Source of the DNA: Eledone cirrhosa
Lineage: Eukaryota
DNA length: 64,000 nucleotides
Direction of reading: 5' to 3'
Assembly: GCA_964016885.1 (NCBI GenBank)
Contig: OZ024741.1
Location: 367,412,001 to 367,476,000 of the forward strand
A program made the translations under genes and the position numbers. This document shows positions 5,126 through 7,696 of this stretch, piece after piece. The notes beneath the pieces are model-generated. The model saw only the letters and a program-made list of their open reading frames with translations. It made no database searches and was not told the origin of the DNA. The first letter of the stretch is position 1. Every line of letters begins with the position of its first letter.

Positions 5126-5408
5126 GGACATTATTATTCCTTACTTTAAACTACAATTACACTCTTTATTCCTTACATTAAACTGCAACTATGTTGACAC
5201 TCTTTAACTAACGTCTTCCATGTGAATTTTGTGGTGTTGTTTTGCTTAACTAATGAATATATATATATATATATATATATATGTAGGAGGTGAGTTTTAT
5301 TGTAGTACAATAAAGCAATGCAGATATCGGATAAGAAGCACTCTACAGTTTGTAGGACTGGAGTATACATAATATAAGATCAAAAGATGGTTAAAGGAGT
5401 TCCATGTA

Positions 5409-5475
5409 TTTTATTATGCGCATTTCAAAAACAAACATCATCATGCAATAATATTTGTGTTTTCATCAGATAAAA
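5409..5475 (-). ncRNA. Hammerhead ribozyme motif (type D)
   Basis: Minus: TTTTAT-CTGATGA-AAACACAAAT...ATGTTTGTTTTT-GAAA-TGCGCA-TA-ATAAAA. Confidence 0.85.
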
Positions 5476-7076
5476 CAGGAGAACATGATATGAAGGCTAA
5501 AAAACACTTGTGGATAGTGCAGTTTTAAATCAACATATGAAAAGTGGTTTTAGATTGATGTGTGATATTGGGAAAAATATTTTATTTAGAGGGGGGGGGT
5601 GGAAAGGATGAAAAAGGGGAGGAGATGAGAGGGAGAGATGGGTGATAGAGAGAAAGAGATAGTTTTTATAACTGAGAGAAGATATATTGTTTTACATAGA
5701 GAGGTTGAAAACCGTTGGAAGATAATGTATAAATTAAAAGAATTTGAAAATTAACGAAGGGAAGATATGTATGAGGAAAAAATGTTTTATTTAGGGAGGG
5801 GGTGGTGGAAAGGATGAAAAAAAGGGGGAGGAGATGAGAGTGAAGGTGGAGAGGGAGAGATGGGTGATAGAGAGAAAGAGATAGTTTTTATAACTGAGAA
5901 AAGATATATTGTTTTACATAGAGAGGTTGAGAACCGTTGGAAGATAATGTATAAATTAAAAGAATTTGAAAATTAACGAAGGGAAAAAAAAATATTTGCG
6001 AGGAAAGAGAGGGAGTTTATGTATGAAGATAGAGAGAAAAAAATAATAATTGTGGATGAATATTCTAACGTCAAAAAGGTGTATGTTGATAAGTATTGTG
6101 GCAATTTCAAAATTAACGAAGAGAAAAAAATTATTAAGGTTTGTGTGTAGAAGGATTTGAGAAAATATAATGTGAAGTTAAAGTTTGTATATTGAAGGAA
6201 TTGATAATATGTGCGAAGAACGAGTTAATATGTATTAAGAATGAGTTTGTTGATGGGGAGAAAAAAATAATAAATTAAGGATGAAATTGAGATTAAAAAG
6301 TTTTATGATAGAGAGAAAAAATAATAATAATTGCGGATGAATATTCTAACGTCAAAAAAACAAATGTATATGTTATGAAGGATTTTACAAGGTGAAGATA
6401 GAAAGAGGGTAATGAGTAAACAAGTATTATAGAGTGTATAATGCCCTTTGAAGTAAGGTAGGAAGATGGGTATATTTTAAAGAGGTGTATGTATATGTGC
6501 CTTTGAGAAAAGATTCTAAATTAATAAAGAATTGAATATTAACTGTATACTTTGTGAAAAGTCCTCAAAATAGGTGAAGGAATTGGTGCTAGTTATAACT
6601 TTTTGGCTCCACTTCCACCTCTTTTAAAGCTCGTCTCTATAATCACCATTCATCTTTCAAATACAAACTTAAAAGAACCAACACGGCTCTCTCAGAACTC
6701 ATATGGTCCTTGAAAGACAAAAACATTAAATATACCATCTTTTGGAAGAAGGTTTCTTCTGCATCCTCATACTTGAACAGCTCTCTATCTAAAATCTGTA
6801 ATCTCTGCCTAAATGAAAAATTTACCATTATCTCTAATCTAGATTCTATAATAAATAGACGTACAGATTTGTTTTCTATCTGCCTGCATAAATTCCATAG
6901 GACTTTTCACAAAGTATACAGTTAATATTCAATTCTTTTTCATCCTTTCCACCCCCCCCCCTCTAAATAAAATATTTTTCCCAATATCACACATCAATCT
7001 AAAACCACTTTTCATATGTTGATTTAAAACTGCACTATCCACAAGTGTTTTTTAGCCTTCATATCATGTTCTCCTG

Positions 7077-7143
7077 TTTTATCTGATGAAAACACAAATA
7101 TTATTGCATGATGATGTTTGTTTTTGAAATGCGCATAATAAAA
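7077..7143 (+). ncRNA. Hammerhead ribozyme motif (type D)
   Basis: TTTTAT-CTGATGA-stem II-GAAA-TGCGCA-TA-ATAAAA; 6-bp stem I, palindromic stem III. Confidence 0.85.
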
Positions 7144-7696
7144 TACATGGAACTCCTTTAACCATCTTTCTTTTGATCTTATATTATATATATATATATA
7201 TATATATATATATATATATATATATATATATATATATATATATATATATATATATATATATATATATATATATATATATATACACACACATATATATATA
7301 TATACACACATATATATATATGTGTGTGTGTGTGTGTGTGTGCCCGATGGTAGCTAAGATGCTTCCATAGGCGGTATGCCGGTTGAGCACTCTATACTCA
7401 TATATATATATATATGTGTGTGTGTGTGTGTGTGTGTGTGTGTGTGTGTGTGCAGAAGCAATCTTAGGCCGAAGACCTGTTCTCACCAAAATATGAATAA
7501 TCTTCTATAGAAGTAATTCTTTTTTATTTATTGTTTTTTAATTATAAAAAATCTATTCGTTTCTGAATCCTGCTTTGGATATGAATCTGTACTTCGCCGT
7601 CACACACACACATACACGCATACCATATATATATATATATATATATATATATATATATATATATATATATATATATATATATATATATATATATAT

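What the first reader, a model, noticed from the sequence alone, without database searches (positions are those of the whole stretch)
5372..7183. Insertions with two outward-facing 3' ends anchored in (TA)n
Seen: in 5372-7183, 22458-22792, 26150-26434, 32178-32310, 39960-42428, 42657-44238, 52064-52557 and 62241-62570 the left arm carries the ribozyme on the minus strand and the right arm on the plus strand, so both termini are element 3' ends, usually joined to TA-rich repeats. 52868-53641 and 55107-59610 have the same inverted ends with one visible ribozyme. Several pairs of arms differ by substitutions, which argues against simple assembly duplication. Known: Penelope elements often have an inverted upstream pLTR. 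Inference: both strands of a break in (TA)n prime reverse transcription, giving MITE-like palindromes made by an RT.
Basis: partly seen in the sequence, partly recalled or inferred. Interest (0 to 1): 0.7.

Follow-up and report, generated by a model that had tools for sequence, protein, structure and literature searches.

The report
Head-to-head Penelope insertions in TA repeats
These mirror-image DNA inserts are the known head-to-head insertions of Penelope-type jumping genes in TA repeats, and their near-strict one-long-end, one-short-end pattern suggests that both broken DNA ends likely copy the element's RNA separately, from two fixed start points.

Summary
All ten cassettes are real outward-facing inverted pairs, and 19 of 20 outer ends join (TA)n. 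They are Penelope-like element (PLE) insertions. The lead cassette belongs to a Hydra-clade family with 15,714 motif hits in this genome. The inverted copy, one-sided tail and TA targeting are published (PMC8557442, PMC3846280), so the architecture is known.

Corrections: the two ends are not equal. One stops at a short site (S) and the other carries an 89-nt tail (L), so the lead unit is 5283-7183. Only 4 of 8 cassettes have two intact ribozyme cores.

In 70 position-sampled units, 54 are head-to-head; of 51 with both ends, 49 are S/L. In 31 of 49 neither arm contains the other. The arms share subfamily alleles (122 vs 14). Many arms stop at one fixed site, often with an extra G, likely the RNA cap.

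Best reading: both cut strands prime separately on the element's RNA. The palindromes are built anew each time and do not move like MITEs. The scan found the same pattern before, in this genome and others.

The parts
5283..7183 (.). Whole head-to-head insertion of family A (Hydra-clade PLE): long (L) end on the left, short (S) end on the right
5257..5282 (.). (TA)13 at the L end
5283..5371 (-).
5372..6600 (-). Left arm: inverted copy of the family A end region, with an internal loss of about 294 nt at 6565/6566
5415..5469 (-). Type I hammerhead motif: 8-bp stem I, palindromic stem III; predicted cut next to 5415
6601..7183 (+). Right arm: C-terminal ORF piece (aa 702-808 of the family protein), an internal loss of about 884 nt with 8-nt microhomology at 6935-6942, then the terminal repeat to the S end
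7014..7014 (+). Fixed boundary at which thousands of other copies begin, often after an extra G; likely transcription start. This copy reads through it (mirror position 5538)
7083..7137 (+). Hammerhead motif of the right arm
7184..7321 (.). (TA)n tract at the S end
22458..22892 (.). Family B cassette: S left (next to a SINE-like repeat), L right (about 100-nt tail); Hydra-type ORF remains in sister loci
26072..26433 (.). Cassette C: L left, S right; intact core on the right arm only; no ORF link tested
32107..32310 (.). Cassette D: L left, S right; both cores intact; the arms meet just in front of stem I
35216..35416 (-). Older family A end piece (S type, 91.5% identical to the others)
36163..39939 (.). 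Longer family A unit: inverted arm 36163-37014 (2 differences in 852 nt from its mate), 5'-truncated Hydra ORF 37027-38796 (+), hammerhead at 39842, S end
39957..42427 (.). Family E cassette: L left (about 147-nt tail), S right; inserted in the TA tract after the family A unit; a SINE-like repeat lies inside
42659..44237 (.). Family F cassette: S left, L right (45-nt tail); GIY-YIG piece 43212-43646 with an internal CxxC; not Hydra-type
52065..52647 (.). Cassette G: S left, L right; right arm broken by a SINE-like insert
52811..53639 (.). Cassette I: L left (about 58-nt tail), S right; hammerhead motif at 53448 (+)
55107..59606 (.). Cassette J: near full-length PLE on the minus strand (RT 57065-58621, GIY-YIG 56289-57155 with CX4CxxC linker, Neptune-like), L end left, 103-nt inverted S arm right
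62243..62568 (.). Cassette H: older (about 90% arm identity), two short-type ends, one intact core

Best explanation
These are head-to-head insertions of Penelope-like retrotransposons in (TA)n, likely made when both strands of a cut target each prime reverse transcription on the element's RNA, one at a short site and one 89 nt further on. Shown: inverted outward arms, two fixed ends, TA flanks, and the link to RT/GIY-YIG ORFs. Inferred steps: (1) the element protein, probably a dimer, cuts both strands of a TA tract; (2) one 3'-OH primes at site S and the other at site L, helped by a few matching A/T bases; (3) each cDNA runs toward the RNA's 5' end, stopping early or running off at the capped start and adding a G; (4) the two cDNA ends join by short microhomology or filler and the gaps are filled. 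Both arms come from the same source lineage, most simply the same RNA molecule. The ribozyme is carried along and does not set the arm ends in family A.
For: Two fixed ends, paired one of each: 49 S/L, 2 L/L and 0 S/S among 51 family-A units with both ends (p about 1e-12 against random pairing). Family E: 13 S/L, 1 S/S, 2 unclear of 16. Family F: 9 S/L, 1 unclear of 10. Family B: 14 S/L, 2 unclear of 16, from score-ranked loci. Window: 9 of 10. Not a copy of one arm by the other: only the L arm has the tail, and in 31 of 49 units the S arm also holds sequence missing from the L arm; in 8 of 49 the L arm is tail only. Same source: at 18 subfamily sites a minor allele was on both arms 122 times and on one arm 14 times; mean divergence was 2.0% within units against 5.7% between units over 34 pairs (one of them the non-contiguous L074); 11 alleles private to a unit were on both arms in 8 units. 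Fixed front end: of 11,147 exact hits of the 22-mer at the boundary, 4,738 have the element's own upstream letters; the other 6,409 are preceded by G 2,111, C 2,147, T 1,581 and A 570 times. In the sample, 13 of 33 arms that start there have G, 9 of them not supplied by the partner arm. Short-read contigs show the same joints and fillers. No arm start of 98 lies within 6 nt of the predicted ribozyme cut. In vitro, a Poseidon PLE cuts and extends both strands, prefers AT-rich DNA, starts at two internal RNA sites that bound the tail, and is predicted to be a dimer (PMC11167929, main text).
Against: No RNA data: the start site and cap are inferred from DNA only. G is about a third of the non-read-through starts, level with C. 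About 20 of the first 100 C rows are a perfect CATATG overlap of the two arms, and 4 of 13 sample G's could come from the partner arm. One RNA is not separated from two RNAs of one source locus, and shared alleles could also come from later gene conversion between arms. Overlapping arms from one RNA need strand displacement or the RNA's second repeat copy; neither was tested. PMC11167929 saw no difference in start site between the two strands in vitro, so the S/L pairing rule is not explained by it. 15 of 70 units have no inverted arm, and 3 units in families A and E break the rule. Palindrome centres can delete after insertion, which could fake non-nested arms; the lead cassette itself has two internal losses. 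This locus's own joint was not bridged by listed short-read contigs.
Confidence: 0.62

Rival explanations
1. One priming, then fold-back: a single cDNA starts at L, its 3' end folds back and copies itself, and the endonuclease trims the second arm at the AT-rich S site.
For: It would give the strict S/L rule and the shared alleles directly. Joints often show 1-6 nt microhomology. PMC8557442 suggests the tail results from endonuclease resolution of the intermediate.
Against: It needs the S arm to lie inside the L arm; this fails in 31 of 49 units, and when one arm exceeds 400 nt it is the S arm in 14 of 17. S arms reach the fixed start with G while their L mates stop short (L063, L087, L096, L097, L128). 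Rescue needs frequent one-sided deletions after insertion.
Confidence: 0.12
2. Two RNAs from the same source locus, each bound by one subunit of a dimer, are copied onto the two cut ends; the S/L rule comes from asymmetry in the protein-DNA complex.
For: It explains units where both arms reach the fixed start, each with its own G (L084, L020), without strand displacement. L104c joins two L arms of different subfamilies (94% and 86% to the reference).
Against: It needs the two RNAs to be of one haplotype almost every time although several young haplotypes coexist. It gives no simple reason why S/S and L/L are rare.
Confidence: 0.16
3. Self-priming on an antisense template, as proposed in PMC3846280, makes the palindrome before integration.
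For: Head-to-head form with palindromic centres; the commonest recurring family-A joint is a perfect palindrome.
Against: The fixed boundary with an extra G lies at the 5' end of the sense strand, after an initiator-like TTTTC, which points to a sense template. Most joints are asymmetric.
Confidence: 0.05
4. The short palindromes are MITE-like units that spread as a whole, by a DNA transposase or by copying of a palindromic RNA.
For: 30 of 49 S/L units are 450 nt or less; one joint recurs in about 20 of 100 listed C rows.
Against: Joints differ between sites; sizes run continuously up to full-length elements; the recurring joint sits on different haplotypes in L070 and L108; the two ends are unequal.
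Confidence: 0.04
5. Assembly or long-read fold-back artefact.
For: The lead locus's own joint was not bridged in the listed contig pieces.
Against: Unequal fixed ends, arm differences in 8 of 10 cassettes, thousands of copies, and head-to-head joints in short-read contigs.
Confidence: 0.01

Closest known systems
Inverted insertions of endonuclease-bearing Penelope-like elements (Craig et al. 2021, PMC8557442; Arkhipova et al. 2013, PMC3846280)
   Same: 5'-truncated inverted copy next to the element, head-to-head as the commonest form, partial tandems, tail at one end only, insertion in (TA)n with no readable target duplication.
   Different: Tails here are 40-150 nt (89 in family A) against the published 30-40 bp. 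The pairing of one long and one short end is counted here (49 of 51) and near-strict. The passages read give no such count and no fixed capped start.
Hydra clade of PLEs, e.g. Hydra-1_Obim, Hydra-1/2_Amil (PMC8557442 section 11 and supplement passages)
   Same: RW, DKT and CxCX5C motifs, no CCHH, C-terminal GIY-YIG, hammerhead, (TA)n target.
   Different: Family A is a separate family by eye (different N-terminus and hammerhead from Hydra-1_Obim). Its unit is about 3.9 kb with an Asn-rich linker and a repetitive 3' region, against under 3 kb in most. No tree was built.
Poseidon element of Anolis in vitro (Frangieh et al. 2024, PMC11167929)
   Same: Both strands cut and extended, AT-rich preference, two internal start sites bounding the tail, ribozyme cleavage not needed.
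   Different: Different clade; no strand difference in start site was seen, and the paper does not resolve how inverted units form.
Minimal hammerheads of metazoan PLEs (Cervera and De la Pena 2014, PMC4209133)
   Same: Type I core, short or palindromic stem III, pairs 100-700 bp apart on opposite strands already noted in Schistosoma, U3-A8 variant.
   Different: Activity was not tested here.
L1 twin priming and the cap-derived G (review PMC4859970, passages)
   Same: A second priming gives an inverted 5' part; an untemplated G marks copies that reach the capped RNA start.
   Different: From my own knowledge, L1 arms do not overlap and the second site is not fixed; here both sites are fixed and the arms usually overlap.

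Membership tests
EN+ Penelope-like elements | Single ORF with RT and C-terminal GIY-YIG endonuclease | tested here: met
   Family A ORFs of 775-808 aa in L068 and L079 with RT and EN motifs by eye. Pfam found RVT_1 and GIY-YIG in cassettes J and F but nothing in the truncated family A ORF.
EN+ Penelope-like elements | pLTR made by partial tandem or inverted copy | tested here: met
   Tandems in L068, L069, L079, L085, L086; 54 of 70 units head-to-head.
EN+ Penelope-like elements | Optional tail at one end | tested here: met
   9 of 10 window cassettes; 49 of 51 sampled units.
EN+ Penelope-like elements | Hammerhead motif in the pLTR | tested here: met
   Motif level only; Rfam gave no hammerhead among the 150 rows shown of 175.
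Hydra clade (families A, B, E) | DKT in place of DKG, RW(K) motif, CxCX5C linker, no CCHH in the endonuclease | tested here: met
   Family A: HSDKTNN, RRLRW, CNCRIKNKC, no CCHH, compared by eye with the published alignment. B and E: partial ORF remains with CxCX5C in sister loci.
Hydra clade (families A, B, E) | Insertion in (TA)n | tested here: met
Hydra clade (families A, B, E) | Placement in the RT phylogeny | not tested
   No tree was built.
Hydra clade (cassettes F and J) | DKT and CxCX5C, no CCHH | tested here: not met
   F loci have PSDKG and an internal CxxC; J has EADKG, CX4CxxC and internal CxxC, Neptune-like.
MITE (non-autonomous DNA transposon) | Copies share one fixed structure and move as a unit | tested here: not met
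   Joints and sizes differ site by site.
MITE (non-autonomous DNA transposon) | Equal terminal inverted repeats reaching both ends | tested here: not met
   One end carries an extra tail.
Non-LTR retrozyme | Head-to-tail arrays of short ribozyme-bearing monomers | tested here: not met
   0 tandem pairs within 2 kb among 100 family-A hits. Cassettes C, D, G, H and I were not linked to an ORF or sampled genome-wide.

The most novel reading that the evidence does not exclude
Penelope-like elements integrate by fixed twin priming. One protein dimer on one capped, uncut RNA uses both ends of a double-strand cut in (TA)n, always one at site S and one at site L. The inverted copy and the one-sided tail are then the normal primary product rather than an accident, across at least two PLE clades in this genome.
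Probability: 0.45. Interest if true: 0.65.

Novelty: new member of a known kind. Interest (0 to 1): 0.38.

Why it matters
How PLEs make their inverted and tailed insertions is named as an open question in PMC8557442. These copies give countable footprints (S/L pairing, non-nested arms, shared alleles, extra G at a fixed start) that separate the proposed mechanisms and can be tested in the existing in vitro system. The structure itself is not new, and the scan has reported the same footprints many times. In practice, tens of thousands of such palindromes in this genome should be annotated as PLE ends, not as MITEs, microRNA hairpins or independent ribozyme genes.

Tried and rejected
Rfam scan: only sub-threshold miRNA-like matches to microsatellites and palindromes in the 150 rows shown of 175; the hammerheads were found by pattern scans instead. 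Generic repeat finder: swamped by microsatellites. Sequencing runs: no RNA holder listed, so the start site could not be tested on RNA; no long-read run listed. Laying contigs and RAD reads on the lead joint: no listed piece bridged it, which proves nothing because contigs break in repeats. A genome-wide count of S ends by pattern was not obtained; S/L counts come from fetched loci. 'The S arm reaches further upstream' (30 of 41) was dropped as a sign of order, because it follows partly from the 89-nt offset; by length S is longer in 20 and L in 29 of 49. A pile-up of L arms ending at the S site is weak (4 of 49). Ribozyme cut as the source of arm starts: rejected for family A (0 of 98); one case in cassette J fits it. 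Target-site duplications cannot be read in (TA)n. Empty and filled alleles were not compared (no relatives held). No fold, complex prediction or tree was run. Rows dropped before the S/L count of 51: L074 (arms 2.2 kb apart, different haplotypes), L081, L105 and L107 (one end lost), and 15 units without an inverted arm.

Full report
What is there. The window lies on contig C2 of a 3.0-Gb animal genome and is rich in microsatellites and retroelements. Earlier scan notes call the genome an octopus; I did not test this. In the lead cassette both arms carry a type I hammerhead motif with an 8-bp stem I and a palindromic stem III, at 5469 (minus) and 7083 (plus). Both cores are intact in 4 of the 8 cassettes claimed; in the other four one core is mutated, shortened or split by a SINE-like repeat. 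Eight of ten arm pairs differ by substitutions. With corrected ends, 19 of 20 termini join (TA)n, against 6.8% of window positions.

The two ends are unequal. The left arm of the lead cassette runs 89 nt past the point where the right arm meets TA, so the unit is 5283-7183. I call these the long (L) and short (S) ends. Nine of ten window cassettes have one of each, with tails of about 40-150 nt. In tandem copies the L end runs straight on into the region in front of the next ORF, so the tail is element sequence, not flank.

Family identity. The lead cassette matches a longer copy at 36163-39939 with a truncated ORF. Full copies elsewhere (L068, L079) encode 775-808 aa with RW, DKT and CxCX5C motifs and no CCHH. 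These are the marks of the Hydra clade of Penelope-like elements, which also targets (TA)n (PMC8557442, section 11 read; supplement rows and alignment passages). Sister loci of families B and E hold Hydra-type remains; F and J are of other clades. C, D, G, H and I were not tied to an ORF by a test.

Genome-wide test. A 25-nt family A motif has 15,714 exact hits. Among the first 100 on C1, neighbours within 8 kb are 29 outward, 0 inward and 3 tandem. Families E (4,245 hits) and F (272 hits) give 22 outward, 1 inward, 2 tandem and 22, 0, 4 among their first 100. I fetched all 68 loci behind the 100 family A hits; they hold 70 units: 54 contiguous head-to-head, 1 non-contiguous pair and 15 solo or tandem. 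Of 51 with both outer ends, 49 are S/L, 2 are L/L and 0 are S/S. Family E gives 13 S/L, 1 S/S and 2 unclear of 16 two-arm units in 22 loci; F gives 9 S/L and 1 unclear of 10 in 25 loci; B gives 14 S/L and 2 unclear of 16 in 28 score-ranked loci. For B, E and F only 1.5 kb on each side was seen. Units were classified by hand from BLAST tables.

How the arms relate. Only the L arm has the tail, and in 31 of 49 units the S arm reaches further upstream than the L arm; in 8 the L arm is tail only. So in most units neither arm can be a copy of the other, unless the centre was deleted later. Yet the arms share their source. At 18 subfamily sites a minor allele is on both arms 122 times and on one arm 14 times; divergence is 2.0% within and 5.7% between units over 34 pairs; 11 private alleles lie on both arms in 8 units, against 49 on one arm only in 21 units. 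Joints mostly differ from site to site, with short overlaps or fillers. One perfect-palindrome joint recurs (about 20 of the first 100 rows), on different haplotypes in the two copies compared.

A fixed front end. Of the 49 S/L units, 15 L arms and 15 S arms stop about 166 nt upstream of S (arm lengths read by hand, so one or two may be chance fits), right after an initiator-like TTTTC (the initiator consensus is recalled). Genome-wide, 6,409 of 11,147 hits of the 22-mer at this point lack the element's own upstream letters; they are preceded by G 2,111, C 2,147, T 1,581 and A 570 times. C and T are raised by the self-overlapping joint and by TA flanks. In the sample, 13 of 33 starts have G, 9 not supplied by the partner arm, and some units have G on both arms. 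Short-read contigs show the same joints: of the filler rows shown for run X1, 5 of 6 ending at 7014 end in G, and 6 of 8 starting after 5538 begin with its complement C (12 rows shown, 55 not). An untemplated G is the accepted sign of a copied cap in L1 and SVA (PMC4859970, passages). No arm start of 98 lies near the predicted ribozyme cut, in line with uncut RNA as template.

Mechanism. Most likely both ends of a cut in (TA)n prime separately, one at S and one at L; the cDNAs run toward the RNA's capped start and join by microhomology. Where one arm exceeds 400 nt it is the S arm in 14 of 17, which fits S priming at the RNA's rear repeat copy and L often at the front copy. One RNA versus two RNAs of one locus is not settled, nor is gene conversion excluded. 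Fold-back, antisense self-priming, unit spread and artefact fit less well (see rivals). This locus's own joint was not bridged by listed contigs, and no RNA or long-read run was listed.

What is known. PMC8557442 (passages) describes the inverted 5'-truncated copy, the tail often at one end, and (TA)n targeting, and calls the mechanism undefined. PMC3846280 (passages and Discussion) calls head-to-head the most frequent form and proposes antisense self-priming. PMC11167929 (main text, parts 1-2 of 4) shows both-strand cutting and extension and two internal start sites. PMC4209133 (passages) notes opposite-strand hammerhead pairs. The bioRxiv retrozyme preprint 10.64898/2026.07.22.740005 (passages) added nothing on inversions. 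Five searches listed no paper that counts the S/L pairing or reports a cap G in PLEs. The library lacks most subscription papers, including the 2005-2008 Penelope papers, and I did not see the supplements of PMC11167929, which bear on the start sites. The scan's own notes report the long/short rule, the two-start model and the cap G many times. They are unchecked and not independent support; one of them pointed me to the RNA's front end before I tested it.

Verdict. A real feature and a known architecture, carried here by new families of known PLE clades. The value lies in the counts that favour fixed twin priming. Interest 0.38.

Noticed in passing
   Followed up: partly
window 5335-5368 (-), 22798-22832, 52559-52592, 32140-32170 (-): The tails of families A, B, G and D share a small bulged hairpin closed by an RCTC/GAGT stem, a candidate signal for the start of reverse transcription. 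No covariation test was run.
   Followed up: partly
window 59498-59600: The short arm of cassette J begins 2 nt after the predicted cut of its variant hammerhead; a single case that may record a self-cleaved template.
   Followed up: no
window 32243-32245: In cassette D both arms begin at the same point just before stem I, with a single G between them.
   Followed up: no
window 35566-39939: Another family's L end (35566, minus strand; related to 46089-46331) leads into the inverted family A arm at 36163: either a nested insertion with deletion or a switch between two families.
   Followed up: no
window 39939-44811: Three PLE units (A, E, F) lie in a chain, each inserted in the TA tract next to the previous one.
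   Followed up: no
window 5283-7183: The two arms have lost different internal stretches (about 294 and 884 nt), which leaves little of a once near-symmetric 3-kb palindrome able to pair.
   Followed up: partly
L104:8441-8794: An L/L unit whose arms belong to different subfamilies, a possible two-RNA event.
   Followed up: partly
window 22053-22457, 25273-25590, 41323-41503, 45223-45443, 52290-52507, 54907-55079: A frequent SINE-like repeat of about 200 nt, often inserted at or inside PLE ends.
   Followed up: no
window 12546-13033: Inverted pair of another repeat with the TA/CA tract in the centre rather than outside; Rfam scores it weakly as a miRNA hairpin.
   Followed up: no
window 16321-20700: Frameshifted L1/Tx1-like element with ORF1, endonuclease and RT pieces (class recalled from motifs).
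   Followed up: no
window 58525-59520 (-): A 331-aa open frame without Pfam match lies upstream of the cassette J RT frame.
   Followed up: no
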